From assembly GCA_009914755.4 (NCBI GenBank), contig CP086569.2, positions 19,456,001 through 19,520,000 of the forward strand: a stretch of DNA of 64,000 nt, written 5' to 3'. Numbering within the stretch: position 1 is the stretch's first letter; each line of letters opens with the position of its first letter. This DNA is from the human T2T-CHM13v2.0 reference genome, Homo sapiens. Below are positions 5,796-45,966 of the stretch, piece by piece. Under the pieces are notes generated by a model that saw only the letters and a list, made by a program, of their open reading frames with translations, made no database searches and was not told the origin of the DNA. Made by a program: the position numbers and the translations under genes.

Positions 5796-5836
5796 ACTAG
5801 TTAATTTTATTTTATTTTATTTATTAATTATTTTCT
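5796..5836. repeat. (ATTTT)n-like AT-rich simple repeat
   Basis: aattttattttattttatttattaattatttt. Confidence 0.8.
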
Positions 5837-6378
5837 GGTAGTGTTTATCTGGAATAGTTTGGTTATTACCTTTAGAAGTGTTTCATGCTATTGTGTGTGG
5901 TTAGGTCATCCTCTCCTTGTCCTTTGGTTGAGAGAGAAGAGGATTTCCTTGAAGTCCTTTTCTTCTGTGCCTATTGGAGATTCTGGATTGGAAACTTCTA
6001 CAGTCCATCATCTGCGATATACGGAAGACACTAGGAAAACCAAGTAAAGTGACCATGATACCACTCTGCAAGTCCTTATGTCCCCAGACAAACTGTCTTC
6101 CTTTTTCTATCTTTCAGATCCTGTCCTTGTTTTTTGTCTTTACATCTGTGGTGTTTCAGTTGTTCAGAGGAAACAATGGGGTGTTGCATTGTAACTAGAA
6201 ATCCTAGGAAGTGAAAGTTTGAGAATGGCTTTTAAAGTACCATGCAAACCAAATCTCATAATGCAAAACATGGGAAGATATGGCATGACATAATTTACCC
6301 AAAATAAAGTGATTTTTATAAAATAAAGTCTTCACCAAATTTAAATAATCTCAAAGAAGTCTGCTGAGATCAGCTTGG

Positions 6379-6760
6379 TCATGGAGACCTTAACCCAGCT
6401 GTGCTAGAGGAATTAAAGACAGACACACAGAATTATGAAGTACAGAGTGGGAATCAGTGGGCTGACAGCCTTCAGAGCTGACAGCCATGAACAGAGTTTT
6501 ACCCACATATTTGACAGTAAGCCAGTGATAAGCATTGTTTCTGTAGATTGTAGATTCAGTAAAAAGGAAGACAAAGAGTTGGGTTCTCACTAGTTATCTG
6601 AAGCAGGAGCAGGTCCTTGAGGCACAGATCGCTCATGATATTCTTTGTGGTTCAGGAATGCCTTAAGCGGTTTTCTGCCCTGGGTGGGCCAGGTGTTCCT
6701 CGCCCTCATTCCAGTAAACCCACAACCCTCAGTGTGAGTGTCATACCCATCATGAGCATG
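6379..6760 (-). repeat. LTR-like terminal direct repeat (3' side in element orientation)
   Basis: tcatggagacc...catcatgagcatg block repeated at 9668-10016. A purine-rich run (aaaaagaggaa, on the minus strand) lies about 80 bp internal to it. Confidence 0.55.
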
Positions 6761-7152
6761 TCATAGTGCTTCAGAGATTTTGTTTATGGCCAGTTTGGGG
6801 GCCTGTCTATGGCCAGATTTGGGGGTCTGTTCTCTACATATTCCTCTTTTTGGTTTTTCCAATTCGATAAAAGCAAAGGTGGCTTTATCACGGTGAACTA
6901 CGTCTCACAGGACTTGGGATCTGCATCTGCAGACTATACAAAGACAAACAACACAGATTTAAAGCACAATCATCTTTAAATCAGAGTCTCCAAGTGTTTT
7001 TGTCCTTTTTAATGGGTTAATAGCAGCTAATCCATCCACAGCTCTTTCAAGCACTCCTGTTCCTGGCATTAAGATCAAGCGTGCCTGGGATAATTCAAAT
7101 ATTTGCTCTTCTTAATTTTGCAATATCCAAAGACATATTTGTAGAATGTCCT

Positions 7153-7245
7153 TCTAGATGCGTTTTTATTCTTTCCCAAATTTTGATCAGATTGCCGTTC
7201 TAGATGCTTTTTTATTCTTTCCCAAATTTTGATCTTATTAAGAGC
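7153..7245. repeat. About 44-bp tandem duplication (2 copies) inside the ERVK-like element
   Basis: ttctagatgcgtttttattctttcccaaattttgatcagattgccg / ttctagatgcttttttattctttcccaaattttgatcttatt. Confidence 0.8.
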
Positions 7246-7318
7246 CAATAACAGTTTCCACAAATCCTAATGTTTAGCTCCTAGAGCGGGTTGTATCATT
7301 TGTTGTTGAGGTGCCATT

Positions 7319-7813
7319 TTACCTCCATGTTTCCAGAAGATCTCTTGCTGTATCTCTTACCATTTCTACCATCTGACCATTTTGGTCAGACAAGCTGAAC
7401 ATAGTGTGGCCTTGGCACACAGACCGAGAGGTGCGATTTAAGCTAAACTTCCCCTTAGGGGACAAATCAATAAATATTCCATAGGAATCGTTGCAGAGCA
7501 CCTCTGCATGTTCTGCAATGCAATTTTCTAAAACAAGTACATTCATTTATTCTGGCCGTGTCTATTTCTGTTTACAATTAGATTCTTGAGGGCAGTATGC
7601 CTCAATTCTAGGAGCAGATTCATTATGATAAACACTGAGACCAGAAAGCATATGTAACTGTGTCAGCCCTGCAAAGGAATACTCATGGCAATGGTGATCA
7701 CCAGTATCATAGCTATCATTATATGGGGGACTCATTGTCCTACTTTCCTCAGGTTTTCTTTTGCCATCTGTGGCAGCTTCTTGATCTGTCCCCAGGTAGG
7801 TGGCTGTGTTCAA
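7319..7813 (-). pseudogene. ERVK integrase C-terminal remnants
   Basis: ORFs 7562-7813 and 7319-7546 continue downstream of the integrase core. Weak similarity to the IN C-terminal region. Interrupted. Confidence 0.4.
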
Positions 7814-8169
7814 TGCGTGTTGCTCGTGATAGTTGGGGTACTCCTCAGCATCAACTTAGAGAATGCTGCCACCGCTGGATCTTTGAGATCCTCCTAACAC
7901 CTCTTCCAGGGTATCTGGCTCATAAGCAGGGCTTTAGGCATCTCAGTAGCACCCACATTGGCAGTTGATCAGTCCTGGAGAAACACAAGCATAACCTCTA
8001 CCCCATGTTATTATTTTACCTATTTCCTAATTTTCTGTTATTGGATCTCACCACCAAACCAGTTTTTCTGCTTCTGTCTTTGCAGCTGGTTTCTGCAGAT
8101 GCTGATCAGCTGCTGATAGCATCTGGCCTCTAGACAGGCTCAAAAAATTTAGAGTCAATAATGCTACAT

Positions 8170-8858
8170 TCAATTTCCTATGTGGTATCCCGTAGTCCTT
8201 GATTCCCCCTTTGGCTTTTGCAACTGCTCTTTCAGGGAGAGATTCATTCTTTCCGCTACGGCTTGTCCTTGAAAATTATATGAGATACAAGTTATGTGTC
8301 TAATATTCCATATAGAGAAAAATGTCGCTACAGCTTCATTAGGGTAGCCTAGGGCATTGTCCATTTTAATAGAAGCTGGACTGCCCATCAACACAAAACA
8401 CTGCAAAAGTTGACATTTAACACAGGCAGAAGACTCTCCTAATTGGCACGTAGCCCAGACGAAGTGAGAAAAGGTGTTTACACATACATGTACGTAAGTT
8501 AGTCTCCCAAATGAGGAAACATGTGTGACATCCATTTGCCAAAGATCCTTAGGTTCCAATCCTCAAGGATTAACTCTTCCTGTAAAAGATGAGGAATGCA
8601 AGCTGGGTATTGCTGGATAATAGCTTTAGCTTCTTTCCAGGTAATGCTGGACCTGCATTTGAGACCAAAGGCATTAACATGGGTTAAATTGTGAAAGTGT
8701 TTGGCATTAGATATTGTAGCAGCAAATAGGTGGTCAGCCATTTGATTCCCTGCAGTCAAAGGTCCTGGAAGAGATGTATGAGCTCTAATATGAGTAATGT
8801 AAAAAGGGTGCATTCTACTCCTAGCTGCTCTTTGTAATTGGGTAAATTCATCAGTCAC
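8170..8858 (-). pseudogene. ERVK pol RNase H C-terminus plus integrase (zinc-binding and DDE core), two overlapping frames
   Basis: ORF 8499-8858 contains [28 protein letters not shown] (HERV-K [26 protein letters not shown]). ORF 8170-8559 contains [38 protein letters not shown]...[13 protein letters not shown] (HERV-K integrase [38 protein letters not shown]...YNSQGQAIVERTN). The two frames are offset, implying a frameshift. Confidence 0.8.
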
Positions 8859-8859
8859 T

Positions 8860-9010
8860 CATCTGTGTGGAATCATGCTGAGCATTTTCAACCGACTGTG
8901 TAGAATGAACCACATATGAAGAATCAGAAATCACATTTATAGGCATATTACAAGCAGTCCATACCTCAATTACAGTTACAAGCTCCGACTTTTGAGCTGA
9001 AGTATAGGGC
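8860..9010 (-). pseudogene. ERVK pol RNase H remnant
   Basis: Minus-strand translation [45 protein letters not shown] resembles HERV-K RNase H (VFTDGSSNGKAAYTG...PYQSAQRAELVAVITVL). Contains a stop. Confidence 0.65.
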
Positions 9011-9667
9011 ATTCAGAAAACTTTACCTTTCGAGCCAGAATAAAAAGCTTTGGTATTACTAGACTCCTCTGTGAAGATATTTTTAGCATTTTCAATAGGT
9101 TTAAATTTGGTTATTTTAGGGAGAATCCAATGAGTTAATTTCAAAAATTGAAATAATTTTGTTTTTGGAAAATGGTTATCAAGAATACAAAGTCAGATAA
9201 ATGTGTTTGTCAAGTAAGGCTATTTGTAAAAGCCTGTTGTATTTGTGTCTTTGTAAGGGGGACAATAATTTTTCCAGGATGATATCCTTGTAATTTAATG
9301 ATCTAAGTTCTTCCATTTCCTATCATAGTAGTGATTTGATCCAAATAAGGAGTCAAAGTCCATGAATTAGTACGTGGAAAAAAAATCCATTCTACAAGGT
9401 ATTGCCCTTGAACAATAACACCAGTAGGTGAATGCTGAGTTGAAAAAAAAAAATCTGTAAATCTAGAACTGGAGCCCACACTTGTCCCATTGTAACCCTG
9501 ATGCTTCCGAACTTCTCTACTTACTCACCATGGGGATTTCTTAAGAGTAGCCAGGTGTCCTTCAGTGTAGTTCCACATTCTCCCACCCTCACTTTGGTGA
9601 CTCTTTGACCTGGGTTTGATTCCCCCGTATGGTCACGACTTGCCGAAGCCACATCAGTCATGGAGAC

Positions 9668-10016
9668 CATAACCCAGTAGCGCTAGTGGCATTAAAGACA
9701 CACACACAGAAATAGAGAGTGTGGAGTGGGAATCAGGGGGCTGACAGCTTTCAGAGCTGAGACCCATGAACAGAGTTGTACCCACATATTTATTGACAGC
9801 AAGCCAGTGATAAGCATTATTTCTATAGATTATAGATTAACTAAAATGGGAGACAAAGGATGGGCTCTGGCTACTTAACTGCAGCAATAATTTGTCCTTG
9901 AGGCAGTTTCAGGAATGCCTTAAGAAGTTTTCTGCCCTGGGTGTGCCAGCTGTTTCTTGCCCTCATTCTGGTAAACCAACAACCTTCAGCATGGGCATCA
10001 TAGCAATCATGAGCAT
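9668..10016 (-). repeat. LTR-like terminal direct repeat (5' side in element orientation)
   Basis: Second copy of the tcatggagacc...catgagcatg block. Internal side (minus strand) reads ggtctcca tgactgatgtggcttcggcaagtcgtgacc, a possible degenerate PBS/leader. Confidence 0.55.
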
Positions 10017-11280
10017 GGCCTGTTCCCAACAAATTTGTTATAATATATGTAAACTAGCCAATGATTTATAGCATATTAATAATATAGATCAATGAAGAAA
10101 TGATAAAATACCTCTCCTACACTTGGAAATGAAATAAAGTTGGCAAGGCTTCCAGAAAATGTAATCAAAAATATGTACTTCCTCAACTGCAGAAGGGTTA
10201 TAGTAAAAATACCTTTCTGAGAGGTTTTATTTGTTAAGTGGCAAATGATTTAATAGAAATCAAGCACTTATGTCTAGTTCACTGGAGCAAAGTTAAAAGT
10301 TGCAAAAGCAACTCTTATGAAAGCCAGAGATTATAACTGTATGACAAATTTTAAAAAATCACACTGACTATCAAGAAAAGAAACAGCTCTGAGGTTTGGA
10401 CTTTAGCAATATTAGTTTGAGATTAAACTTGGTCGTTCATTGAAACAGTCAACAGAGCAGTAAATTTAGATATATTCCCAGGAAAGAGACCATTTCTGTG
10501 TTCAGCGGGGTTGGGCTCCCTGCCTAAATACTTGGTGAAAAAAAGTGTGGTTCAGACATTTAAGTAAAATATTTAAGTCAGTACAGAACATCATGTCCTG
10601 CAGATAGCAGGATCTAACACAGAATGCGGTTTTTTATTGAAATTGATGAGAAAAGATTTTTATCTCAACCTCTATCCTGTGGGATATGCAAGACTGAGGT
10701 TAGATTTTTCATGTTACCTACATAATATAACTACCCCCAAAGCAGAAACTGGTATAAAATACTAGATTGCACAATTAAGTTCCTAAAATCCTGAAAAGAT
10801 TAACATAAAACTCCCCCCATAAGTATCACTTTACACTCAAGAACTAAAGATCGCTTTACCACTTCACAGACAACATTAACAATTCACTGATGGATGTTCC
10901 ACGTCCTAGGAGGTAGCCAGGGAAGACACACTTAAGGGTCGTACCCAAGGATAAAAAGTTGAATAAAAAATGAGTAAGTTTAGGTGTTCTCTGAGATGAA
11001 GAAATGGAATCTAAAAGCAAAAACAGGTGGTAGGAGGACAAAAATAAATTTTTAAAATAGACAATTATACATTTTTGAAAAGTGAACCATATATGAAGGT
11101 TCATGAACCATATATTATAGGAACTCAATTTTTTTTTTGTTTGTTTCTTATGCAGTAGATTCCACACAAATATAGCAAGAATAAGTACTTTCCTAAGTAG
11201 ATCTGTAAGTAAGTTTGCCAGGTGCAGGGTGATAATAATACATTTGAAATGTCACCTTTCAATTTAAATTTAATTACTTG

Positions 11281-11472
11281 TGGCTGGGCATGGAGGCTCA
11301 CACCTGTAATCCCAGCGCTTTGTGAGGTGGAGGCAGGCAGATCAGGAGGTCAGGAGATCGAGACCATCCTGGCTAACACGGTGAAACCCCATCTCTACTA
11401 AAAATACAAAGAGTTAGCCGGGCGTGGTGGCAGTGGCCTGTAGTCCCATCTACTCGGAAGGCTGATGCAGGA
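11281..11472 (+). mobile_element. Alu SINE, 3'-truncated, present only in copy A
   Basis: tggctgggcatggaggctcacacctgtaatcccagcgctttg ... ggaaggctgatgcaggag, then the shared sequence gtactgggtattag resumes. Copy B has a 2.7-kb different segment at the same breakpoints. Confidence 0.8.
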
Positions 11473-12081
11473 GGTACTGGGTATTAGTGATGGTAATCTT
11501 TGTGTTTTTCATTATGAAATAATGTATGTAACTGTTGGGTACATCAGTGCTTTTAAATGGGCTGCTTAATTTAGGATTAACTATGTATATTCATGTTAAG
11601 AATTAACACGATTTGACTGTTTCCTGTATTTTATAGTATACATGTGCAGAAATATATTCAAAATTGAGGAAGGAAGCATACCTTTATCAGGGTGCTATTA
11701 AACTTGAACATCAAGTATCATATATCAGTTGAGGGTTTTTTTTTTTGATTACTCCATAAAAACGCCTATTTGGGGTGTTTTTTTTAAAATTGGGAGAAGC
11801 TGTCTTCTGTGTAGGACGGCTATTTCAAAATATTTCAGTGTTTTGTTTCCTGTTGCATGACAGATTTAACTTTTTTTTTTTTTTTCCAGCAGTCGTGGTA
11901 CATCAGAGTCCAGTGTTCTAGAAGAGGCAGTGTCTCCACCCTAATTTTACTTTTCTAATTCTGGTAGCTACAGGAATTTTTGAAAGTTTTGTTTAAGTAG
12001 TCTGACATTTTTATGTAAAGAGCATGAAATCGTGCTATGTATAAATTTTCAACATCTAAAAGTGAATCAACATTTTCAATC

Positions 12082-12390
12082 CTTGAATCCCAGCATTTTT
12101 GGGAGGCTGAGGTGCATGGGTCATGAGGTCAGGAGATCGAGACCATCCTGGCGAACACGGTAAAACCCAGTTCCTACTAAAAAGTTAAAAAATGAGCCAG
12201 GCATGGTAGTGGGCCCCTATAGTCCCAGTTACTCCAAAGGTTGAGGCCAGAGAATGGGAGGAACCCAGGAGGCGGGCTTGCAATGAGCTGAGATCCCACC
12301 AATGCACTCCAGTCTGGGCAACAGAGTGAGACTCTGTCTAAAAAATAAATAAATAAATAAAATAAGAAAAAAAGAAAATATTTTCAATCA
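12082..12390 (+). mobile_element. Alu SINE, slightly 5'-truncated, with target-site duplication; copy-A-specific
   Basis: Alu body ends with an (aaata)n tail. Direct repeat attttcaatc at 12073-12082 and 12380-12389. Copy B has the single uninterrupted site (ctttcaatcagtgtcaaagg near 30775). Confidence 0.85.
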
Positions 12391-14523
12391 GTGCCAAGGG
12401 CTTCTTGAAGTTCCAATCAAGTGTTACAATAAATATTTGTAGATAATGGTCGATACTTATGCATACTTATTTTAAAGATATATTTAGGTGGGAATAGTTG
12501 TGGATGTATTAAGAGTAATGAAATAGAATGTTAGCTTCATTTACTTGTGTTTTTACCATATAATAAATCCTATCATTTTTTTTTTTTTGTCCTCAGTATG
12601 GTGTCACATTTGAATAATGTGCATAACAAAGATTTCACATTGTTATAAAATCAAGTCTGTGAATGCTACTTGTTTTATTTCTGGCAAAAATCTCTTCAGC
12701 AATTTAAGAAAATATTATAATTCACTGGTGCAGTATTGGGCATAAAATTGCCACTAGCACTTTGTAGTTATCTGTATAAAGTTAAAAGTTTTCTGACCAG
12801 TTTTGTAGCAAATTAAATCCATCTACCTGTAAGATTAACAAGGCTGAAACTTGGGCAAAGTACAAAACAAGGGCCCCTGTGCAGTTGCTTATTTTTCAAA
12901 TGGATGGTACAAAAGTTGATGGAAAGATTTACTCAGGAATATAAAGAAACCTAGTTCTAACAGTTACTCTCTAGAGTAGCAGAGCTAAATATGTTACTCA
13001 GGATTTTATTTAACCTGTTAAATTATTAAGGGAAAGACCACAGTTATGATAGAAAAAAATCAAAAATTTTGTTTCAGGTTTATTTGGTATCTTCATAATG
13101 TTCTCAGTTTCTTCCCTGGGGAGTTTCTGCCTTAGCTTACAGGTTTTATAGTCAGTAATTCTTAATGAATCAATAAATTCTTTAATGCAAATTTCTAATA
13201 GTTTCTCTTGGCTGACTAAAGGAACCATTCAGGGTTTGTGTATGGAACACGCTGTGTTGGGAAACCAGGTACATTTTGACTTTGTCACTAGATTGAAGCA
13301 TGCCTGCAGGGAGAATTCTTGGACCATCCTTCTTGAGCACTGATTACATGGGGGAAAGGGAATGATTTTGAAATTAGGTATGCATTAATTTTATAAAATA
13401 CATTGCCCTAAGAACCATTATTGGAACATATATGTAATTTAAAAGCCTAAAAACTGTGGTGACTTCTAAAAATAAAATTTAGCAAGTACATCAAAATAAA
13501 CCATCAGGTATGCTTTTAACACCAGGATACTTCAGACTTACATAAAATATTAATGTCAGTACTCATGTACTTGTTATATGATGATAAGTCTTTTCTTTCT
13601 TACTCCTAAAATAGTAAGTCATCTCAACCTTTACAAACTTTGACAAATCAAAATCTCTTAAATATTTTATCTTAAGCAAAAAACTATAAATTTTTCTCAA
13701 AAGAGTGAAACATTTGAAAGACGCAAGGATCCATATAAACTTTGGATTTTTAATGCCTTTTTACCTTCTTGTCTTCAATGGGGAAGAAAGATACCCATTG
13801 CAAGCAGTTAAAATAAACCACAGAAGCCCTGGATGTCTTCCACCCACAGATTCCCCTGTCCATGGGCATTGGCAACTTATCTGTTGACTCCTGGTCTTGC
13901 TTCCACTGAATGATTTTTATGTATTTCTCTAAGGAATTTTCACAGTGAGCACATTTGTCTTTGGTTTCTTCATTACTCATTCTTAATTCATTTTTTAAAT
14001 CTAATTCATTTTTTCAGTGTTCACTTATTCCTGAATCATCCTCTTTAAAACACATGGGCACCAAAGCAGGAAATACACAAATACATTTGTAAAATATTTT
14101 AAGTGTTTAAAAAGGCCGTAATATAATCGCAATTTTTAAATTACAGCATGTATGTCAGTGAACTGATTTTTAAAATTGAAGTCATTGCTATCATCAACAG
14201 AAGGCAAATAGGTCATCTCAATGAAGGAAGCGATTAATTTCCTTCAAGTGGCCTGTGCTTTAGATTTGAATTAACCAGGAGTCTTGGGAACATCATATGT
14301 TGGTGTAATTCAAGCAAGACTTAGAATGTGTGTTAACTGGACAGAGAAATGTATCTGCTAAGCCAGAATCAGAACACAGAAGGGAAGCAGAGGTGCAGAG
14401 GAAGGAGGGAGGCGGTGTATGTCCCTGTAAGCAACCTTGGAATGGAAGCCACCTCCACCCTTGGTTTCTTCTACTGCCTGCTATCTGACGTTGACAACCT
14501 CTTGTTTAAGCTCCGTTTTTTGT

Positions 14524-14582
14524 TTAATTGGCTTTTGTTTATGTTTTTTGTTTTTTGTTTTGTTTTGTTTTGTTTTGAAACG
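14524..14582. repeat. (GTTTT)n simple repeat
   Basis: tttttgttttttgttttgttttgttttgttttg. Confidence 0.85.
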
Positions 14583-16099
14583 GAGTCCTGCAAGTGGACG
14601 GCGGCCCCTCCTAGGGTTTTAGCAATTACTCGGATGTGGACCCTTTCCATAACTTTTATTCTACTCCTGATCTCTATACATAGCCTCACATCCACATTTC
14701 TGATAGTTTCCCTCCAAACACATGCAGAAACTCCACAGCACCAGCTTCATCACAGGAGTGATTATCCCAGTTCTTCGCTCACGCTCTATCTTCCATCCAC
14801 CCAGTAACCAGCGCTGGCACATTCCCACTCCCTGTCCTGTGGCTGCAAGAGGGGTCTTCCTCATCATCTGCCTGGAATACTGAAACAGCCCTGTCAAGGC
14901 TCTCTGTGAATTCAGTCTCTGCCTGCCAGATACCTGTGGTCATCTGCACTAGGCATTCCCTGAAGGGAAGATATGTATCTCATGTGCAGTGTCTCCGTTC
15001 TGGCAGAGTCCAATGCCTTGGTATTCTGGGCTCTGATAATCTGCCTTTTTCTTTCCAGATTGATTTCCCACAACACCACCAACGTTGTACTAGAAATGTT
15101 TCATCTGTACCAACCTGCTTGCTGGGGCTGGGCTATGGCTGTATCTTCCTTGCTTGGCATTTGCCTTCACTGTCTCCTCAACCTGTGGCACTCTCATTCT
15201 GTCATAAAGCCTGATATGCTGTTGGAGACCCAAATGAAATTTCATCTCCTCCTTATTTCTGAATTGAAAAGTAACCACTCCAGCACCTTACTTGCACAAT
15301 ATCTTGTACCTGCTTCTTGAAAATATACACATATTTGTTTCTCCTACTTCTATTTTTTCCAGGGAAGGCCCATATTTTAACAAATTGTCTTTTCCCTCTG
15401 CATCTTGGCATGGGTCCCTACATCTCAAATATTTAAATAGACCTCATTCTCAGAGACAACTATGCTGACCTTTCTCTTCTGGTTCTAGCCATAACCTATT
15501 TTTTTTTTTTTTGGTAAGTTAGCAATGCAAATAAGCAGAAAAATATATAGGTTCACCATAGGACTCTGAACTTTTTGCTCACCTTGTTCTAAAGTCATCA
15601 ACAGGGACTGAGTTAGTTTCAAAAATAGGAGAAAAGCAACACAGTTTTTTCTCTATCTACTCTATCTACACCTGCCATCTCTTCTCAATCCTTCTCATAA
15701 AATTAAAATAACTGAAGAGACAGTTGATCATTTCCACAGGCAGAAATGTAACATCCTCTGTGCTAGAAGAACAAGAAGAAAAAAGTTACTCATAAATGAG
15801 GTTTCTTTCTTATATGGAATAGTAATTTCAAGATAGCAATGTTATTTAAGCACCTCTTTGTTAAGAAAGAAAGAGGAAGAAAAACTACTTCTTTGCTCTG
15901 GTGTATATTTTGTAACTACACAGTGGAATACTGAAGGATCTTTGGACACAACGGAAAGAAATGAAGTACGTCCATTGGGCACCTTATATCAGAAACAGTA
16001 AATTTCAGACTTTTCAATTTCCTTTGAGCCCAGATGAACAAGTGAAATGAGGAATATGCTACTCACTATGCTGTTTAATAAATTATTTTTATTATTCTT

Positions 16100-25160: not shown

Positions 25161-25193
25161 TAATGCGGTGGGTTTTGACGACTTCCCTCCCAT
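25161..25193 (-). pseudogene. gag N-terminus remnant (MGGKSSKPTAL, then stop)
   Basis: ATGGGAGGGAAGTCGTCAAAACCCACCGCATTATAA on the minus strand. MGxxxS fits an N-myristoylation-type gag start. The next frame continues CMLKSLRRE, which resembles the gamma-HERV MA start (..PL.C.LKN.K..), implying a frameshift. Confidence 0.45.
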
Positions 25194-27443: not shown

Positions 27444-30164
27444 ATTTGTTGACAAAAAACAAATAATTATTTTTAGTATAAGTCTGTCCATGCAATAATG
27501 AGAATATTACTAAGTTACAAGAATATTGACAATTATACTAAAATGCTTTTTGTTGTTTATTTAAAATGAAAAGGTAACCGAGAAGCCTTCATTTTATCTG
27601 GTGACCATCTATGAAAGAGAAGTTATGAAAGTCAAGCTCAGAGTAGGAAGCTTTCATCTACATTCATGAAAAACACCGTAAGACAAAAATGTGTAGAAAG
27701 GGCAGCAGGCAGAATACAAAAATAATCTCTACACAGAATATGATTCCACATACACTGTTGGTATTTAAAACAAAGTTTCAACTCACAAAGATTATGCAAA
27801 TATCAAAGACTTATCAAAAGACCAAGGAAAAGAAGAATAAAAGTTTCCTTCTTTCTTTTTACAGAATGAAGGAAAGTAAACCTCTAAATGAAGGAGGTAT
27901 TACAAGAATTTTTTTTTATGGGGCTAATAAATGTTTTACTTTGTTAGAAAAAAGTTAACTAACTGGGTCCTACTGACTAACTACAGAAAGGGTAGAAATA
28001 TCGTGATTAATGTCAAAAGCAGGAAAAGAAATAAATATGAGTAAGACAATTAAATCAACACAGTTAGGGAAAACATGTGGTGGGTGGGGAGAGGAAGAGA
28101 AAAACTAAGGCAAATGGGAGGCAAAGGCAGAGACAAAGAAAATCCAGGGTAGAACAACTGTCTAATCGGATATCGGTTATGGAGATAACAGAGTAACCAT
28201 ATTAGATATAAACTGTTTAAATTTCTGTGTTAAAATATAAAATACTCATATTAGATTGAGAGAAAAAATTGCTTTTACCTTGAAATAATGACACTGAAAT
28301 ATTGAAAATGAAGGTTTAGAGAAAATTAACAAGTATTTGTCAAAAAAGTAAGGCCACTGATACTATATGAGGCAAAGGAGATTTTTAAGAAAAATGCAAG
28401 CAATAAAGAGGGATAATAATATATAACTTGTAAGGTGACAGACAAAATAAGAAATATCAACATATGAACAAACTTTTAAAGATAATATAACAGTCAGGAA
28501 TTTAAATGCCTCAGTAGCATTGACTCAATATACACCGGAGGCAAATTTTATAAATGTCTATTTAGGTAGACAAATCCCAGTTGTAGTGAGAGGTGTTTAT
28601 TATATTACTCACCGAGACTGATGAGTACACAGACATTTAAGAGTTAATAGAAAGACTTTGCAATGTTTGTGTACTTACTTTTCTTCAGTTTTTTAATGTG
28701 AAGCCAAGTAGTAGAGCACACTTTTAGGATTCTACTAGCTCTGCTAGCAGAGCAAGTATTAATACAGAATAACCCTCTTCCCCTTTAACATCAAGTACGT
28801 CTCATCTAACTAGCACTTTGTTTTGCCTTCTCACATGCTCACTAGACATCATGCTCAACCTTCTCTTCCAGATCCACTTTCTCATGATACTGTTTTCTAA
28901 CTGGTCTTACTTGGATGCCAGCAAAATGCAGGCTTACCAGGATATCAAAGCAAAGAAAGAACAGGAACTACAATATATCCAGTTTCAGTAAAAGAAGTAA
29001 CTCAATTCTTACACACGAATGTTTGCCGGGGGGCTTTCAGTCAATGCATTTACAGCCCTGACAAATTATGAGACAGCTGCTCTGCATTACACATGAGTAT
29101 TCCACCAAACTAATGTAGACATTCAAACACCTCACTTTCTCTCTCAAGCTGCTGGGATGCAGCGCCTGGAATACCTTGCAGTGAGGAAATCTTTTTCTTT
29201 AGAGCAAATATTGGAAGTTTCATGTTAGCCATTTTAAAAGGCAACACTTTGACAAAATGACCTTTCACTCTTTGGAAACTGGGGGCACATTCACATTTAC
29301 TGCTAGAACATTTCTCCCAAAACACTCAGTGTAATATGTGGTACTCTTTGATATGGACTGGTGACATGCCGGCATCAAAAGATGAGACCATACATTTACA
29401 TGTACGTCATTTATTCTCAGTTAAGTGTTATCTACATAGGAAATAAACTGAAATTGTTGTGCAGTTTCAATTCTGACTGCTGACATTTATTAAACTTTGG
29501 CTCAAAGGTAGTGTGATTCGTCTCATGATTGACTTTTTGTACTAGCTTTCTCTCCCAAGTCCGTGTTCCATTAATTTCCTCAGCCAATAAGAAAATATTT
29601 TTCAATAATGCTAAAATTAGCTCCATTTGCTGACCCTACTACTAAAGAATCTGGATTCGGATTCATTGACAAGAATTCCAGAGGCACTTTTATCATAAGT
29701 TTTATTTCAACAAAATACTGATCCAGTTTTTATTATCCTCAAGAGTTAAATGTCAGCTCTGCCTTAAGGAGTATTTGGTATATACATTTTTCAGAATTTG
29801 TATCATAACCAGAGATGCAAATATCTTTAATAGAATTTTGTTCTGTATATTTTTTTTTAATTAAGAATTGTTACCTTACTCAAACGACCACCTTTTTAAA
29901 CCATTTTTCAGTGGTCTGTGTAAACAGTTTCATATCAATTATCTGAAACCTAATTTAAAATTGGCCACAGACATCTAACCTCCTACTGTTAACAGACTTG
30001 AAGATGTAGATAATTTAAATTAGGGTTGGCATTTCATTTTTTCTTACCTATATCTTAATTTCTTGGAATAATAAAGTTTGATGTTCCACAAGAAAACTAC
30101 TTAAGTCATTTTCAAAAGAAACTTGCCATCTGCATTACTGTGTTCCAGACATTAGGTGACTATA
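27444..30164 (+). mobile_element. Copy-B-specific 2.7-kb segment, AT-rich, probably an old LINE-derived fragment
   Basis: Absent from copy A. A has a truncated Alu at the same two breakpoints (11281-11472). Weak L1 ORF2 N-terminal similarity (LDINCLN compared with LNINGLN near 28180-28300). No intact ORF. Confidence 0.35.
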
Positions 30165-31395
30165 GGTACTGGGTGTTAGCAATGGTAAACTCCGTGCAGT
30201 TCTTTATGAAATGCTATATGTAACTGTTGGGTACATCAGTGCTTTCCAAATGGGTTGCTTAATATAGGATCCACTATGTATGTTTATGTTAAATGGTAAC
30301 TTGTGATTTGGCTGTTTCCTGGGTTTTAGAACACCACAATGCAGAAATATATTCAAAATTAACAAAAGTAAACTTTTATCTGGATGCTATTAAATTTGAA
30401 CATCAGGTATCATACATCAGCAGATCTTTTTTTTTTTTTTCTTTTTCTTTTTGTTACTCCATAAAAACACCTGTTTGGGATTTTTTCTTTTAACTGGGAG
30501 AAGCGCTCTTCTGTACAGAATGGCTATTCTAAAAATAGCTACGTGTTTTATTTTCCTCTTGCATGACAGATTTAACTATTCTTTCCAGCAATGGTGGTGC
30601 CTTCAGAGTCCAGTACTCCAGAAGAGTTAGTGTCTTGAGCCTAATTTTACATTTCTAATTCTGGTAGCTATTATCAGAAACTTTTGAAAGTTTTGTTTAT
30701 GTAGCCTAGTATTTTTAATGTAAAGAGAATTAAATTTTGCTATGTATAAATTTTTGTAACCTAACAGTGAATCCATACTTTCAATCAGTGTCAAAGGCTT
30801 CCTATAGTTCTACTCAAGTGTTACAATAAATAATTGTAGATAATAGTCAATATTTGTGTATGCTTAAAGATCTATATTGGTGAAAATAGTAGCGGATGTA
30901 GTAAGAGAAATGAAATAAAAGTATAGCTTCATTCACTTGCCTTTTTACCATATGTACATCCAATCTTTCTTTGTCCTCAGTGTGGTGTCACTTTGGAATA
31001 ATGTGCATAGTAAAGATTGCACATTGGTGTGGAAATCAAGTCCGTGAGCGCTACTTTGTTTATTTCTGGCAAAAATCTCTTCAGCAATTTAAGAAAATAT
31101 TATAGCCTATTGGGCTGTATTGGGCATAAAAGTGCCCCTAGCACTTCTGTGGTTTTCTGTAGAAAGTAATAGCTTTTCTGATTAGTTTTGAAATAAATAA
31201 ATGCCACCTACCTACGAGATTAACAAGGCTTGAACTTTTGCAAATTACAAACGATCAAGGCCTGTGTGTAGTTGTTTATTTTTCAAATCAAAGGTATAAA
31301 AATGGAAAGATTTACTCAGAAATATATAGAAAACCAGTTCTGTCACTCTCTAGAGTTGCAGAGCTAAATATGTTACTCAGAATTTTATTATATAA

Positions 31396-32805
31396 TCTGT
31401 TTGAACTCCTTATCTGTCAACATAATTCTGAATTTGGATTCTCTGCATCTGACCTTCCTTAGTGAGGCCTAGGATTTGTCACTACTGACACATGGCCACT
31501 CCTAATTGAGGTGCTGACTCTGGATCATCACCCTTTATTCTGGCATGACAGAAAAACCGTCAGCAGTTCAATTAGTGTGCTATCTGTCACACTGCTTACT
31601 GCCTATTGTTTAAGTAGCGTTTTGTGCAATTATTTGTCACATGAATAGATAGAGGAAACTGTAAATAATACACAGATGAGATCACAAGCACCTATAAATT
31701 ATCCATAGTGATTCTGCCACAAAATCTAGGACACTCTAGAGGTCTGAGTAGAGATTTTTTCCAGTTCTATGTTGTAAAAGCTAACTTTTAAAAAATAAAA
31801 ATGAGATCAATTGTAAAGGAGGAGCCCTGTTTTTAAAAACTAACGAAATACTTGAAGCCCATTCATTAAGTATGAGGACCAAAATTTCCACAATAAATAT
31901 GCCATCTCAGTATGTTCCTGATGCTATAACACAGTACCTTGGACTGGGTAACTTATGAAACTGGAAAGAAATAAATTTCTTACAGTTTTAGACACTGGGA
32001 AGTCCAAGATCAAGGCACTAATAGGTCCAATGTCTGGTGAAGGTGGGTCTCTTCTTCCAAGATGGCACCTTGTTGCTGTGTTCTCCAGAGAGGACAAATA
32101 CAGTGTCCTCTAATGGTGGAAGGGCTAAAAAGCCTAGCTACTTCCATTGAGTTCTTTTATAAGGTCTCTAATTGCACTCTTAACCTCCTCCCAAAGTCCC
32201 CACTTTTTAATTCTATCACACAGGGGCATTTAAATTCCAACATATAAATTCTGGAGCGACACATATATTCCAGCCACAGGTGTCAAATGGAAAGACCACA
32301 GGCAATATTGTACTATTTCTAATGCCTAGAAAAATGTGTATCTTAATGTTTAGGTAGAAAACAGAAATATGCTGGGAAAAACGACGTCTCGTTGTAAAGA
32401 TCACAGCCCAACTCTTCGGAGGAAAAAACACAGCTTACCCTTCTCAAATGTAAGCCTAGATTTGAGGAATATAGTAGGTTATACTTATCTAAAAATTTAG
32501 TAGAAAAATAAGAAGGCTTTTTTAAAAGAACAGCTCCTTTTAGTATAATGAATGAGACATTTTATGACTGGAAAAGGGGGTTTCACTTGACTCGATTATT
32601 CTCGGTTCATACACTATAGTACCAAATACATTAGGAAAAACCAGTACACTGGATTACCCACCGGTTTCTATTCAGAGTTTTGTCTGATGACAGAGAAACC
32701 TTTACAAAGGAGTAAATGTTATGTAACTTCTCATCATATTGAAATTAGAAGCTGGGGAGCAAACCTGGTTACCAAGAGTCATCTGGTTCGTCATGAGAAA
32801 AGCCT
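31396..32805. mobile_element. Copy-B-specific 1.4-kb insertion/indel containing an ancient mammalian interspersed repeat
   Basis: Flanked by ctgtt at both junctions (atctgtttgaact ... gcctgttaaatt). Copy A has single-copy sequence aacctgttaaattatt at 13013-13028. The internal block 31900-32260 (..ggaagtccaagatcaaggcac..ggtgaaggtgggtctcttcttccaagatggcacc..ataaggtctctaattgcactc..) is a widespread old repeat family whose name I cannot assign. Confidence 0.5.
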
Positions 32806-35249
32806 GTTAAATTAACAAAGGAAAGAGAAAAATTAAAGGGTAAAAATTTTGAAAATTTGTGTCGGACTTTTCTGGTATCTTTATAATGGTTTCAACTTAT
32901 ATCCTGGGGAGTTTCTGGCCTAGCTTATAAATTACATTAGGAACAATTTCACACGTTAAAAATATCAATCCATTCTTTTTATAGTCAGTAATTCTGACTG
33001 ATTCAATAACTTCTTACGGGCAACCTCAAATTTCTATCCATTTCTTTAGCTGACACAATGAGCGATTAGCTGTTCACATATAAAACACAGTGTTGGGAAA
33101 CCAAGTCCATTTCAACTTTTTCCGTAGATTGAAGCATGTCTATAGGGAGCCTTCCTGAACCACCTTTCTTGAGCTCTGATTATGTGGCAGAAAGGGAAGA
33201 TTTTTGAAATTTGGTATGTATTAATTTTATGATATAAGTTTCTCTAAGAACCATTTTTGAAACATATATGTCATTTAAAAGCCTAAAAACGTTGTGACTG
33301 ATAAATACAAAATTTAGCAAGCACATCAAAATAAACGATCAGGTATGCATTTAACACCATGATACTTCAGACTTATATAAAATATTAATGTCAGTACATA
33401 TGTACTTGTTATATGATAATAGTTGTTTTCTTTCTTGTTCCTAAAAAACATGAAAAACCCTACCTTTACAAACATTGATAAACCAAAACCTATTAAATAC
33501 TTTGTCTTAAGAAAAAAAATCCATAATTTTTTTCAAAACAGCATTACCTTTAAATGACTCAAGGTTCCATGTGAAATTTAGATTTTTTATGCTTTCCACC
33601 TTTTTGTCTTCAATGGAGGAGAAAGATTACTCAGATGTGGATTCCTGTTCCAAGGAGTTAAAATAAACCACAGAAGCCCTGTGTGTCCCCCACCCACAGC
33701 ATGTATGCTAGTGAAGTAAGTTTTTGTAATGAAAGTCATTGCTGTCATCATTGGAAAACAAATAGATCATCTAAATGCTGGGAGCGATGAATTTCCCTCA
33801 AGCGTCCTATGCTTTAGATCTGAATTAACCAGGAATCCAGGGAACATCCATGTGTTATGGTAATTCAAGCAAGACTTAACAACTGTGTTAAGTGGACAGA
33901 GTAATCCATCTGATAGGACAAGAATGAGAACCCAGAAGGGAAGAGAACCTGCGGAAAAAGGGAGGCACCAAATGCCCCTGGAAGCAGCCTTGGACTGGCG
34001 GCCATGTCCGCCCTTGGGGTCTTCTGATGCCAGCTAGCTGACATTGACAGCCTCTTCTTTAAAGTCTGTTTTCAAAGCAACATTCTGAAGCAAAGCACAG
34101 TCTACATTTTTTACAGACTTATTTAAGGATCAAATAGAATGCACAAAAATTACCTTCAAAAACAGTCATATACTATGAAACTCCTAAGCTCCATATTCTG
34201 TGCAGCCTTTCTTACTGCTTGTAAGACAAGAAGAGAACAGGGGTGCCTTTCAGGGCACATGCCACTCTTCTGACTTTGGACACTAATTGACTCCCTTCCC
34301 TGACCTCAACGTACTTATGAAAGCTGTACAATGCTGGAACTTGTACAGAGAAGCAACTCATTACCCTTTTGTGATCTAGATTTTCTAGCTCCCTTTGTTC
34401 CCTTGCTAAAATGTAGGTTACTCTGCCGTTTTTCTTCTCTGCCTTTGTTCTTTCACTTGCTGTTGCCATATTTTTTCTTCTTGCTTTTGTTCCTCAATTG
34501 GTTTCTGAACTATACCTAACAGTTCAGAAAATAAAGAGTAGCTGCCCGTATCAGATTGTTCAAATGAATGTGAGACCAGTCTGCAGGAGTCCTTGCCAAG
34601 ACCCGGGGAGACTCTGCTTGGCTTTTGTTTGACACGTGACCTACTTCAAGTCGCTGTTCCATGTTCATCGACTTCAAGCCCCCAATCCCGCTCCTTGCCA
34701 CTGCATCCCACTTCACTTGGCTGAGATGAGTTGTACTCATCCCAGGGTGACTTGTAGTCACCCTCATCATGACCGACTCCAAGTGACATATCCTCCCTCC
34801 ATGTCGCAAGTTCTTGTCCTTTACACGGATCTCCTTCCCCTTTTTCAAAGCAAAGCCTACATTTCTGCCTCTGCCTTTGATTATAATCCCTCTCCTAACT
34901 TTAGGATCCTGACTGAGCCACTGATCCCTATTTCTGTACAGAGCAGTTTTATAACTCTTACTCTCATAAAGGTGCTCAAGTCTGTTCTCCCCTGAAAAAA
35001 CAGAACAGACATCACACACCTGCACTCCCCCAGACATTCTAGCCAACTCACTTTTCATTCCCCACTTCCACCAAATGGACGGCAGTCCTTCCTGGGTTTT
35101 TCACGATTACTCAGATATGGATCCTTTCCGTATCTTTTCTTCTACTGCTGGTCTCTCTACCTGCCCTCACATCCACAGTTCTGACAGTTTCCTGCCATAT
35201 ACATGTGAAATCCTCACAGCACCAGCTTTGTCCTGGGTGGGATCATCCC

Positions 35250-35282
35250 AGTTTTTTTGTTTGTTTGTTTGTTTGTTTTTCT
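35250..35282. repeat. (GTTT)n simple repeat
   Basis: gtttttttgtttgtttgtttgtttgttttt. Confidence 0.85.
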
Positions 35283-38042
35283 CATGCTCTTTCTATCCTC
35301 CATCCATCTAGCAACCAGTGCTGGCATGTTCACATTCCCTGTCATTCAGCTGCACCAGGGGCCTTTCTCACCATCTCCCTGGAATACTTAAAGAGCCCAC
35401 CCAGTCAAGACTCTCCGTGAAGTCAGTCTCTGCCTTCTAGTAACTTGTGGTCATTTGCACCAGGAATTTCCTGAGGGGAAGGTGTGTATCTTCTGTGCAG
35501 TGTCTCTGCTCTGTTAGAGTTCAACACCATGGTAGTCTGGGCTCCAAAAATCTGCCTTTATCTTTCCATATTGATTTCCTATAACACCACCAGCTTTGAC
35601 CTAGAAATATTTCATCTGTCTCAACCCACTCACTGGGGCCTGGCCATGGTTATGTCTTCCTTGCTTGGTATTCACCTTTACTGTCTCCTCGGCCTGCGGC
35701 CCTCCCACACTGTCATAAAGCCTGTTATGCTATTCAAAACCCAACTGAAATGCCATATCCTCCTTATTTCTGAAGGGACAAGTAACCAAACCACTCCAGC
35801 AGCTTACTTACACCATATCTTGCACCTGCTTGTTGAAAACCTACACATACTTGTTTTGTCCACTTCTATTTTTTTCCAGTGAAGCCCCATATTTTAGTAA
35901 ATTGTCTGTTCTCTCTGCATCTTGGCACAGATCCCTACATCTCAAATGTTTCATTAGACATCATTCTCAGAAACAATTATGCTGACCTTTCTCTTACAGT
36001 TCTGACACATAACCGATGTTTTTAAAGCTAGAAATGCTAATACGAAGAAAAATTCATAGGTTTACCAGAGGACTCTGAACCTTCTTGCTCTGCCTTGTTT
36101 TAAACTCATCCGCAGTGACTGAGTTAATTTCATGAATAAGAGAGAAGCAACACAGTTTTTCCTCTCTCTCCACCCCCCATCTCTTCTCAATCCTTCTCAT
36201 GAAATTAAAATACAAAAGAGGCGTTTGATAATTTCTGCAGGCAGAAAGGCAACTTTCTCTTTGCTAGAACAAGAAGTGAAAGTTACTCTAAGATGAGATT
36301 GTTTTCTTTTATGGAATAGTAATCTCAAAATAGGGATGTTGTTTAAGCACCTCTATATTTAGAAACAAAGAGGAAGAACAAACTGCTTTTCTGCTCTGGT
36401 GTATGTTTTGCACCTGCACGGTGGAATACAGAAACCTCTGTGGACACAAAGGCAAAGGAATAAAGTATGTTCATTGGGCACCTCATATCAGAGACACCAA
36501 ATTGCAGCCTTTTCCATTCCATCTGTGCCCAGATGAAGAGGTGAAATGATGAATATAAAAATTTCTCAATAACAACAATGCTACTCACTATGCTCCTTAA
36601 TAATTTTAAAGCTAGTATGATAATGTACATTCTCTCTCAGAGGCAGAACACCTCACTACTCAGTTGATTTTCTTTATTCTATCACATTATTTTCATTCCC
36701 TTGCTCAGGCCTGGGACAAACGGCTGCCTGTCAGAAACTCCTTCTTGGGGCCACCTTCCCTAATGATCAGCTGCAGCCCATTTCTTCTGCACTCCTGGGT
36801 AATGTCTTCCTGGCAATCTGCCTCAGTGACTAGAAATTCAGGAAGACAAGGGCTTGGTTGGGTTCACTGTTGTGCATTCAGCCCCAAGGAAAGTGCCAAG
36901 GAGAGATAGGCTTTAGATAAAATCTCTCTGAATGCTCTCCAAAGCAGATTTACTCTTGAATCAGCAAAGTCCAACTTCTCAAAACCCCTTGCCTCTTTAA
37001 GTAATTCTGTATGTTCTCGAGTGCCATGACTATAAGCAAGAAACTGCTAACAAGAGGTTTTGGAAATGTTTTGAAGATGATGCATTTTCAATATTTGTGG
37101 GGAAGAAAGTGTGGTTTAACTTGAGAAATTTTCTTTCGTGTTTGAGAATTAAACACTTTGATCCCAAAACAAAAGAGCCTGGCTGTTTGCTTAGCCCTAG
37201 AGCAAAGTGCAAAGCTCCCACAGCTCTCTTCCAGTCTCCCTGCACCTCCAGCAAGGAAAGTGGGTAATCTGAAAGAAGACTGGATTGAGAAAGTGGGCCA
37301 GACAAGAGAAGTCTGATGGCCAGTTTTTCTCCAGTGCTAAGTTAACTCAGCGTAACAGCTTTTCCAAAAATTAAAATACAAATATTTTCCCTAATTTCTT
37401 AAGACACGAAGGAAGCATATAGGTGGAAAAAGAAATAATATTTAAATGTTTCAATCACATAAAGTTCTCTAATGGGAGTTAACTATTATTTCAGTGTTTC
37501 ATCATGATCTCTCAAGATGATAAGGCCTTCATGAAATAGTTTTTGCCAAAGAGTTTTGGGGAAAAGTCTACCTAGTATGCTAGACACTGAATAGTTAATG
37601 AAAACACTTTCAAGAAACTCATCTCGGAAGCCAAAATGAGAAGTCCTTCATTGCAACGTGTGCTTTCCTCAGCATGGTCTTTACAAGATAACACAGAAGT
37701 TACTTCAGAAACGTCATTAACGACATAACGACACTATAAACCCCACACCAATACTTTGACTAGATTACACCTACAAAAAGACCTTCAGTGATACATGAAA
37801 TAATTCACAGAGTACACATTACACAGATGTGACCCTGCAGACTGTTAGTTAAAATAAATAACTTACTTGGGTATTGATATGAGATGGGCACAGCAGCTGC
37901 AGCAGCACCCACAAGAGGCATATCTCCAGATATGCGTACACATGAGACATATCTCCAGAAGAGAACTCATCCATTTCAAGATGCCCGGGCACGTTTCCTG
38001 CATCTGCATGAGGCACAAATGGTTTTCCCATGAGTCGTTCCT

Positions 38043-45962: not shown

Positions 45963-45966
<4 letters not shown>

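What the first reader, a model, noticed from the sequence alone, without database searches (positions are those of the whole stretch)
5830..37212. Composite ancient direct duplication in which a class I provirus body separates the two copies
Two roughly 11-kb paralogous blocks (A 5830-17011, B 25722-37212, about 80% identity) are separated exactly by HERV-1. Block A ends precisely where the HERV-1 LTR begins (17012). Block B continues into unique DNA. Both blocks start with about 110 bp homologous to the HERV leader (A 5840-5950 and the end of the HERV-1 leader 25722-25830). The repeated unit is therefore [leader fragment + 11 kb], not simply flanking DNA. Possible models: a roughly 20-kb tandem duplication of [provirus without 5' LTR + S] followed by deletion of most of the first provirus (breakpoint near the Alu/ATTTT repeat at 5700-5840); or S is a transduced or co-mobilised part of this ERV family present genome-wide. 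The A/B divergence, the HERV-1/HERV-2 divergence and the HERV-2 LTR/LTR divergence are all about 20%, so these events look roughly coeval and very old.
Basis: seen in the sequence. Interest (0 to 1): 0.55.

Follow-up and report, generated by a model that had tools for sequence, protein, structure and literature searches.

The report
Old duplication split by a provirus
Two old, roughly 80%-identical copies of a stretch of non-coding human DNA lie directly against both ends of a retrovirus fossil that has lost its front end; this is most likely ordinary genome wear, though it could be a rare record of a faulty viral insertion that copied several kb of host DNA.

Summary
The duplication is real. 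A (5849-17012) and B (25722-37221) are collinear direct copies with 6,194 aligned bases, 80.4% identity and K2P 0.229. Only about 6.2 kb is shared; the rest is copy-specific insertion or deletion.

HERV-1 (17013-25721) is a class I (gamma-like) provirus on the minus strand. Its 3' LTR tip abuts the last base of A, and B keeps the matching empty site. HERV-1 lacks its 5' LTR and about 156 bp of leader, and stops where B starts, with 3-4 bp of microhomology.

Two independent human contigs span both junctions, so this is not an assembly artefact.

- The first 110 bp of the blocks is not ERV leader.
- HERV-1 and HERV-2 differ by 34%, not 20%.
- S is not carried by the ERV family.

S is a low-copy duplicon. 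A third human copy C is 85.5% identical to B, and a fourth copy D also exists.

Best explanation (about 0.5): a local duplication, then a normal integration into A, then a deletion from the ERV leader into B.

Rival (about 0.3): a one-ended, aberrant integration created the duplication, as seen experimentally for HIV and ASLV.

Dating cannot separate the two. Interest is low to moderate.

The parts
5849..17012 (+). Copy A of the duplicated non-coding segment S, the earliest-diverging copy
   Evidence: Collinear with B in 8 blocks, 80.4% identity. It is the outgroup to B, C and D (K2P 0.23-0.25 against 0.16-0.18).
6357..10029 (-). A-specific insertion: internally deleted class II-like ERV with about 370-bp LTRs (6378-6760 and 9657-10017)
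   Evidence: RNase_H, Integrase_Zn and rve hits. LTR pair 83.5% identical, K2P 0.187. Absent from B at 26216.
11282..11473 (+). 3'-truncated Alu in A (Alu positions 1 to about 199, no poly-A), at the point where B has 2.7 kb extra
   Evidence: The truncation indicates a deletion in A, so S was originally at least 8.9 kb.
12086..12370 (+). A-specific Alu, inserted after the duplication
   Evidence: B is continuous across the site (30775-30786).
16086..16385 (-). A-specific Alu, inserted after the duplication
17013..17592 (-). HERV-1 3' LTR. Its outer (U5) tip at 17013 is flush with the end of A. The inner boundary is approximate.
   Evidence: The TGTTG terminus is shared with both HERV-2 LTRs. 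A purine-rich tract lies just upstream on the minus strand.
17013..25721 (-). HERV-1: class I (gamma-like) provirus with gag-pro-pol-env and 3' LTR, lacking the 5' LTR, PBS and about 156 bp of leader
   Evidence: Gag_MA, Gag_p30 (3e-30), RVP, RNase_H, zf-H2C2, rve and MLVIN_C, all on the minus strand. Homology to HERV-2 and L016 ends at 25724-25725.
25721..25724 (.). ERV/B junction with 3-4 bp of microhomology (CTGG on the + strand) and no filler
   Evidence: these bases align both to the ERV relatives (L016, HERV-2) and to copy A.
25722..37221 (+). Copy B of S. It carries the unoccupied HERV-1 target site at 37221/37222 and continues into flanking DNA shared with copy C.
27449..30164 (+). Segment present in B and C but absent from A; at least partly a deletion in A
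31401..32803 (+). Segment present in B and C but absent from A
34072..35067 (+). Segment present in B, C and (for the part covered) D, absent from A
39933..48579 (-). HERV-2: separate, older, full-length class I provirus with both LTRs. Not part of the duplication; used as outgroup.
   Evidence: LTR pair 76% identical, K2P 0.29. It is 66% identical to HERV-1.

Best explanation
S is a piece of non-coding human DNA, at least 6.2 kb and probably at least 9-11 kb originally. It belongs to a low-copy segmental-duplication family with at least four copies: A, B, C and D.

Step 1 (shown). An early local direct duplication produced A and the ancestor of B, C and D, at K2P about 0.23.

Step 2 (inferred). 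A class I retrovirus then integrated normally, in minus orientation, into copy A at the position that stays unoccupied in B and C. This fixed the right edge of A/B homology at the LTR tip.

Step 3 (inferred). A later deletion, joined through 3-4 bp of microhomology, removed the 5' LTR, the PBS, about 156 bp of leader, the rest of copy A and the beginning of copy B. This brought the truncated leader flush against B and set the left edge of homology.

Later events in A were a class II-like ERV insertion, three Alu insertions and kb-scale deletions.

Nothing here appears functional. It is neutral structural history.
For: - The duplication is real, uniformly diverged and non-coding.
- Both junctions are confirmed in independent human assemblies.
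- The LTR tip is flush with A, and the empty site survives in B and C.
- The ERV truncation is measured against two relatives.
- S duplicated repeatedly without the ERV. C is 85.5% identical to B over 10.1 kb, extends past the A/B boundary and has no provirus at the target site. D is equidistant from B and C, and A is the outgroup.
- Kb-scale deletions demonstrably occurred in this locus: the 3'-truncated Alu in A sits where B has 2.7 kb extra.
- With integration and then deletion, both flush boundaries follow by construction, so no coincidence is needed.
- ERV age of at most about the duplication age is compatible. The HERV-1 branch transversion rate is 0.033-0.049, against 0.045 per A/B lineage.
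Against: - It needs three separate events in a fixed order.
- The deletion breakpoint falls only about 156 bp inside the 5' LTR boundary of an 8.7-kb provirus, which is a narrow target for a random deletion.
- The ERV is about as old as the duplication (0.7-1.1 times), so integration must have followed the duplication fairly quickly.
- No trace of the postulated deleted parts, or of a duplicated but ERV-free state, could be recovered. C's homology to B stops at 26315, and no A-lineage paralog was found.
Confidence: 0.5

Rival explanations
1. One-ended (aberrant) integration created the duplication in a single step.
- A viral DNA lacking a usable 5' end, for example from incomplete minus-strand synthesis or a failed second strand transfer, had its intact 3' LTR end inserted by integrase at position s.
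- Host repair joined the truncated leader end, through 3-4 bp of microhomology, to a site several kb upstream.
- The provirus was left flanked by a giant target-site duplication, which is A and B.
- C and D are later, unrelated segmental copies of the B side.
For: - The anatomy matches the experimentally defined class exactly. One LTR junction is normal, the LTR next to the primer-binding site is entirely deleted, and direct host repeats start and end at the two virus-host junctions.
- The HIV tables list 'Entire LTR deleted / Normal / Duplication'. Duplications there reach about 3.7 kb and deletions reach 67 kb.
- The text states that duplications are 'hundreds or thousands of bp' and that the aberrant end is often truncated.
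- Germline precedents exist: HERV-K loci with 61-450 bp flanking duplications, including 111 and 250 bp cases.
- The truncation lies only about 156 bp from the LTR/PBS boundary.
- The ERV and the A/B split are of similar age.
Against: - S has at least two more copies (C and D) that arose without the ERV. The segment was therefore duplicating anyway, and the ERV-made origin of only the first split would be a coincidence.
- The original repeat was probably 9-11 kb, because a deletion in A is shown. That is larger than any duplication measured experimentally and more than 10 times the germline cases.
- Dating by codon-position-2 transversions gives a ratio of 0.73 +/- 0.18, leaning towards the ERV being younger than the duplication.
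- No pre-integration single-copy allele could be examined.
Confidence: 0.3
2. A roughly 20-kb tandem duplication of [provirus without 5' LTR + S], followed by deletion of most of the first provirus, leaving a 110-bp leader stub at the start of A.
For: - The A-start to B-start spacing is a clean 19,873 bp.
- An Alu and a simple repeat lie just left of A.
Against: - There is no detectable ERV sequence at the start of A or B (with a positive control).
- The duplication breakpoint would have to coincide exactly with the LTR tip.
- B is followed by an empty target site rather than by the LTR junction.
Confidence: 0.03
3. S is part of a mobile repeat family, either a long TE or sequence transduced or co-mobilised by this ERV family. 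A and B would then be independent insertions rather than a local duplication.
For: - S occurs at more than two places in the human genome.
- A 130-bp piece of S has an inverted copy at 38057-38183.
Against: - Only 4 protein-database clusters match an S ORF, and only 1 matches an A ORF.
- There is no L1 or other TE coding signal.
- The copies have different end points and share flanking DNA beyond the A/B boundary.
- Sibling ERVs lack S, and C lacks the ERV.
Confidence: 0.04

Closest known systems
Ancient low-copy segmental (tandem or local) duplication with nested transposable-element insertions and deletions
   Same: - Direct, collinear, non-coding copies with uniform neutral divergence.
- Further paralogs with different end points.
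- Copy-specific Alu and ERV insertions and kb-scale deletions.
   Different: - The copies are below the 90% identity used in standard segmental-duplication catalogues.
- Both homology edges coincide exactly with the ends of one provirus, which needs an extra deletion step.
Aberrant (one-ended) retroviral integrations described for ASLV and HIV-1 vectors (Hughes laboratory; PMC5041404)
   Same: - One normal LTR-host junction.
- The LTR next to the primer-binding site entirely missing.
- Host DNA duplicated as direct repeats flanking the provirus.
- A short-homology junction.
   Different: - The repeat here is at least 6.2 kb and probably 9-11 kb, against a measured maximum of about 3.7 kb.
- This is a germline fossil roughly 50 Myr old, not a cell-culture event.
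- Simultaneity of integration and duplication is not demonstrated.
HERV-K(HML-2) loci with unusually long target-site duplications (61-450 bp; PMC4422153, PMC5488345)
   Same: Endogenous proviruses or solo LTRs flanked by direct host repeats far longer than 4-6 bp, attributed to inefficient integration.
   Different: - Those have a known pre-integration allele that proves the duplication arose at insertion.
- They are class II elements, recent, and more than 10 times shorter.

Membership tests
Segmental (local direct) duplication | Two collinear direct copies of non-repeat DNA, far above chance | tested here: met
   8 collinear blocks, 6,194 aligned bp, 80.4% identity, E = 0.
Segmental (local direct) duplication | Not an assembly artefact | tested here: met
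   Independent human contigs L001 and L014 span both junctions at 99.86-99.95%. Host shown to be human via PRJEB21933 biopsies.
Segmental (local direct) duplication | Low copy number, copies with differing end points, no TE termini or coding | tested here: met
   Copies C and D. 4 protein-database clusters. No Pfam or L1 signal.
Segmental (local direct) duplication | Duplication existed independently of (before) the provirus | not testable with these tools
   Needs orthologous loci in outgroup primates. Dating gives an ERV/duplication age ratio of 0.7-1.1.
Aberrant one-ended retroviral integration with large host duplication | One viral end joined normally (complete LTR tip at the host junction) | tested here: met
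   LTR terminus TGTTG at 17013, matching both HERV-2 LTR termini.
Aberrant one-ended retroviral integration with large host duplication | Other viral end truncated or aberrant | tested here: met
   5' LTR, PBS and about 156 bp of leader missing, relative to HERV-2 and L016.
Aberrant one-ended retroviral integration with large host duplication | Direct host repeats begin and end exactly at the two virus-host junctions | tested here: met
   A ends at 17012. B starts at 25722 with 3-4 bp of microhomology.
Aberrant one-ended retroviral integration with large host duplication | Pre-integration allele carries one copy of the repeated segment (duplication arose at insertion) | not testable with these tools
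   No outgroup or empty allele is available. C and D derive from the B side and are uninformative.
Aberrant one-ended retroviral integration with large host duplication | Provirus and duplication have the same age | tested here: inconclusive
   HERV-1 branch transversions are 0.033 (codon position 2) to 0.049 (all sites), against 0.045 per A/B lineage.
Class I (gammaretrovirus-like) endogenous provirus | gag (MA, p30), protease, RNase H, integrase with MLV-type C-terminus, and an LTR | tested here: met
   Pfam hits on the minus strand. An env TM-like motif is seen in the translation. No RT or env Pfam domain was reported at the thresholds used.
ERV-transduced or co-mobilised flanking sequence | S attached to the same ERV junction in other family members | tested here: not met
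   L016, L013 and L020 lack S. C has the empty site and no ERV at its homology end.
NAHR between flanking ERVs producing a tandem duplication | Related ERV copies on the outer sides of both duplicated units, at equivalent junctions | tested here: not met
   No ERV sequence left of A. B is followed by an empty site. HERV-2 lies 2.7 kb away and is only 66% identical.

The most novel reading that the evidence does not exclude
HERV-1 is a germline fossil of a one-ended retroviral integration. Integrase inserted only the 3' LTR end, and host repair joined the LTR-less 5' end several kb upstream. This created a 6-11 kb 'target-site duplication' (A and B). That would be more than ten times longer than any reported for an endogenous retrovirus, and longer than those measured in cell culture.
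Probability: 0.3. Interest if true: 0.5.

Novelty: new member of a known kind. Interest (0 to 1): 0.3.

Why it matters
**If the conventional reading is right.** This is a routine example of how old duplicated DNA is reshaped by insertions and deletions. It matters only as a caution: flush boundaries can arise by construction.

**If the aberrant-integration reading is right.** Faulty retroviral integration, so far documented mainly in drug-treated or mutant-virus cell culture and in a few sub-kb HERV-K cases, would be shown to create multi-kb segmental duplications that become fixed in a primate germline. It would also define a recognisable signature that could be searched for genome-wide: a one-LTR provirus flanked exactly by kb-scale direct repeats, with an empty site in the downstream repeat.

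Tried and rejected
**Hypotheses rejected**
- S is a full-length L1. tblastn with L1 ORF1/ORF2 (recalled from memory) hits only 4257-4650 on the minus strand.
- S or the flanks contain genes or TE proteins. No Pfam hits in stop-free stretches of at least 55-60 aa. No conservation peaks.
- HERV-1 is an L1-mediated retrocopy of ERV RNA. Rejected because the 3' LTR is complete to its U5 tip.
- Tandem-array or NAHR models. Rejected by the empty site in B.

**Searches that found nothing**
- Rfam gathering scan: no hits.
- Tandem Repeats Finder at score 150 or more: no rows.

**Attempts to see copy C's left flank**
- The metagenome scan returned only L015. Its homology to B stops at 26315, and 460 bp of unrelated DNA lies to the left.
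- The contigs carrying C break at a young AluY and at an L1PA.

**Search for an A-lineage paralog**
- Only the self hit was returned.

**Using L013 to cap the age of HERV-1**
- L013 is 88% identical to HERV-1 across gag-pro.
- I abandoned this because the similarity ends abruptly at 23207, and the two share a nonsense codon. L013 is therefore a mosaic or conversion partner, not an independent integration.

**Frameshift and stop counting**
- gag-pro has 0 frameshifts over 2.1 kb.
- pol-env has about 8 frame switches over 3.1 kb.
- This is uneven and not decisive.

**Papers**
- Two Hughes-laboratory papers (PMC3767498, PMC1317513) are not held in the library.
Full report
**1. The observation**

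A self-comparison of the window shows a chain of eight collinear direct blocks linking 5849-17012 (A) to 25722-37221 (B). Global alignment of the blocks gives 6,194 aligned columns, 80.4% identity and K2P 0.229. There are 658 transitions, 555 transversions and 67 gap events. Identity is flat along the length, 0.70-0.88 per 200 bp, with no exon-like peak.

However, only about 6.2 kb of each '11-kb' block is shared.

A carries the following copy-specific elements:
- An internally deleted class II-like ERV at about 6357-10029 on the minus strand. It gives RNase_H, Integrase_Zn and rve hits, and its LTR pair has K2P 0.187.
- Alus at 11282-11473, 12086-12370 and 16086-16385.

B carries three extra segments: 27449-30164, 31401-32803 and 34072-35067. 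The Alu at 11282 is 3'-truncated. It covers Alu positions 1 to about 199 and has no poly-A, and it sits exactly where B has the 2.7-kb segment. That 'insert' is therefore at least partly a deletion in A, and S was originally at least 8.9 kb. No Alu is shared between A and B.

**2. The provirus and the junctions**

HERV-1 lies on the minus strand. It has Gag_MA, Gag_p30 (E = 3e-30), RVP, RNase_H, zf-H2C2, rve and MLVIN_C hits, which mark it as a gammaretrovirus-like class I element.

On the plus strand its LTR begins TGTTG at 17013. Both LTRs of HERV-2 have the same terminus, at 39933 and 48099. A ends at 17012 (...tctcctac). B reads ...gctcccac|agctctc... through 37221/37222, and copy C reads ...gctccaac|atctctc.... 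B and C therefore preserve the unoccupied target site.

At the other end, homology of HERV-1 to HERV-2 and to a sibling provirus, L016, stops at 25724-25725. L016 is 74-76% identical over 6 kb. Both relatives continue for about 156-160 bp of leader and PBS into the 5' LTR. A/B homology starts at 25722. The overlapping CTGG (CCAG or CAG on the minus strand) aligns to both partners, giving 3-4 bp of microhomology with no filler.

These stretches score like shuffled sequence against the HERV-2 leader, both HERV-2 LTRs and the HERV-1 LTR. The neighbouring genuine leader scores 51 against 9.9 +/- 1.4.

**3. Species and assembly**

A search with a 233-aa HERV-1 ORF returned exact matches. Their contigs match the window as follows:
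- L001 (18.3 kb, JGI) matches window 13218-30831 at 99.86%.
- L014 (3.9 kb) matches window 23014-26883 at 99.95%.

L014 comes from project PRJEB21933, which is paediatric Crohn's disease gut biopsies, so the host DNA is human. The window is therefore human. The A/LTR junction (L001) and the leader/B junction (L001, L014) are both reproduced in independent assemblies.

**4. S is a low-copy duplicon, not an ERV passenger**

A junk ORF from B found only four clusters in the 5.8-billion-protein collection.

One cluster lies on human contigs from gut, lung and bile metagenomes (L002-L011), which are 99.9% identical to each other. They align collinearly to B 27305-37401 at 85.5% and to A at only 75-81%. 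The alignment includes all three 'B-specific' segments and 180 bp beyond the A/B boundary. This is a third human copy, C. Its contigs are interrupted by a young AluY and an L1PA.

L015 matches B 26315-27252 at 84.3%. To the left it has 460 bp unrelated to anything in the window, and no ERV.

L012 is a Logan contig of unknown host and represents a fourth copy, D.

In the 1.45 kb shared by all four copies, the K2P distances are:

| Pair | K2P |
|---|---|
| A-B | 0.227 |
| A-C | 0.252 |
| A-D | 0.241 |
| B-C | 0.158 |
| B-D | 0.159 |
| C-D | 0.181 |

A is therefore the outgroup, and B, C and D form a near-trichotomy.

Further points on S:
- No stop-free stretch of at least 60 aa in B, or of at least 55 aa in the flanks, hits Pfam.
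- An L1 protein query, recalled from memory, hits only 4257-4650.
- Sibling ERVs L016, L013 and L020-L023 carry no S.
- A search with an A-specific ORF found only itself.

**5. Ages**

HERV-1 and HERV-2 are 66% identical (K2P 0.45-0.49). The HERV-2 LTRs are 76% identical (K2P 0.29).

To date HERV-1, which lacks a 5' LTR, I polarised substitutions on its terminal branch using L016 as sister and HERV-2 as outgroup. At sites where those two agree, HERV-1 differs as follows:

| Site class | All substitutions | Transversions |
|---|---|---|
| Codon position 1 | 15.7% | 6.3% |
| Codon position 2 | 13.5% | 3.3% |
| Codon position 3 | 22.0% | 5.3% |
| All sites | 16.9% | 4.9% |
| A/B per lineage (for comparison) | 9.8% | 4.5% |

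The HERV-1 figures are upper bounds, because they include pre-integration change. They place HERV-1 at about 0.7-1.1 times the age of the A/B split. That is old, but it does not resolve 'simultaneous' from 'soon after'.

A closer relative, L013, is 88% identical across 23207-24824. It cannot be used as a cap on age. The similarity ends abruptly, with the last 85 bp identical and then about 55-60% identity. The two also share a nonsense codon. L013 is therefore a mosaic or conversion partner.

With a primate neutral rate of about 2.2e-9 per site per year (my assumption, not measured here), the A/B split is of the order of 50 Myr old and the B/C/D burst about 35-40 Myr.

**6. Mechanism**

Models that place the duplication breakpoint at the LTR tip are excluded. 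B has an empty site, and there is no ERV remnant left of A. An L1-mediated ERV retrocopy is excluded because the 3' LTR is complete to its U5 tip.

Two models remain.

*Model M2.* A local duplication, then a normal integration into copy A at position s, then a deletion running from the leader into copy B. Both flush edges then arise by construction. Three observations favour it:
- S demonstrably duplicated at least twice more without any ERV.
- This locus demonstrably suffered kb-scale deletions.
- Integration after the duplication is allowed by the dating.

*Model M12.* A one-ended, aberrant integration. In experiments, proviruses of this kind have one normal end and a truncated other end. 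[quoted passage not shown] The supplementary tables list 'Entire LTR deleted / Normal / Duplication' cases, with duplications to about 3.7 kb and deletions to 67 kb. Germline HERV-K examples have 61-450 bp repeats (PMC4422153, PMC5488345). Three things favour M12:
- It explains the whole anatomy in a single event.
- The truncation lies close to the PBS.
- The ERV and the duplication have similar ages.

Two things count against M12:
- The existence of C and D would be a coincidence.
- The repeat is large, at 6-11 kb.

I put M2 at about 0.5 and M12 at about 0.3. The remainder goes to the rejected or unknown alternatives. These weights are judgement, not calculation.

**7. Verdict**

The feature is real and the coordinates are accurate. 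Its interpretation as a composite [leader + S] unit, or as ERV-borne sequence, is wrong. It is most likely an ordinary, neutral product of duplication, integration and deletion in a duplication-prone, gene-poor stretch of human DNA. A credible minority reading is that it is the largest known germline example of an integration-generated host duplication. Comparative genomics at the orthologous locus would settle this.

Noticed in passing
window 23207-24824 (minus strand) and locus L013 313-1940: The HERV-1 gag-pro region is 88% identical to a fragment on another contig, L013 (host unknown). The similarity ends abruptly at 23207: the last 85 bp are 100% identical, then identity drops to about 55-60%. 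The two share a nonsense codon (TAG, near window 24064). This suggests gene conversion or recombination between ERV loci. The same region of HERV-1 is less frameshifted than its pol-env.
   Followed up: partly
window 6357-10029 (minus strand): Internally deleted class II-like (betaretrovirus-type) provirus with about 370-bp LTRs (K2P 0.187), inserted only in copy A. It gives RNase_H, Integrase_Zn and rve domain hits.
   Followed up: partly
window 11282-11473: Alu truncated at its 3' end (no poly-A), abutting the point where copy B has 2.7 kb more DNA. This is direct evidence for a kb-scale deletion in copy A.
   Followed up: yes
window 38057-38183 (minus strand), compared with 15133-15263 and 35640-35770: A segment of about 130 bp from inside S recurs in inverted orientation 0.9 kb to the right of B, at 74% identity. 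It is probably an old interspersed repeat fragment embedded in S.
   Followed up: no
window 63386-63617 and 63626-63862: Two adjacent units of about 240 bp, 84.7% identical, seen in the self-BLAST. Tandem Repeats Finder at score 150 or more did not report them.
   Followed up: no
window 39933-48579 (minus strand): HERV-2 is a second, older, heavily frameshifted class I provirus in the same orientation, 2.7 kb to the right of B. Alus lie near both of its ends (39615-39913 and 48921-49230). It is only 66% identical to HERV-1, so it is an independent integration.
   Followed up: partly
loci L002-L004 (human copy C): Copy C is interrupted by a near-consensus AluY at the point equivalent to B 27305, and by an L1PA 3' end at the point equivalent to 37401. 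By contrast, the whole 64-kb window contains no Alu closer than 88% to the AluY consensus.
   Followed up: no
window 4257-4650 (minus strand): Short degenerate L1 ORF2 C-terminal fragment. It is the only L1 coding remnant detected in the window.
   Followed up: no
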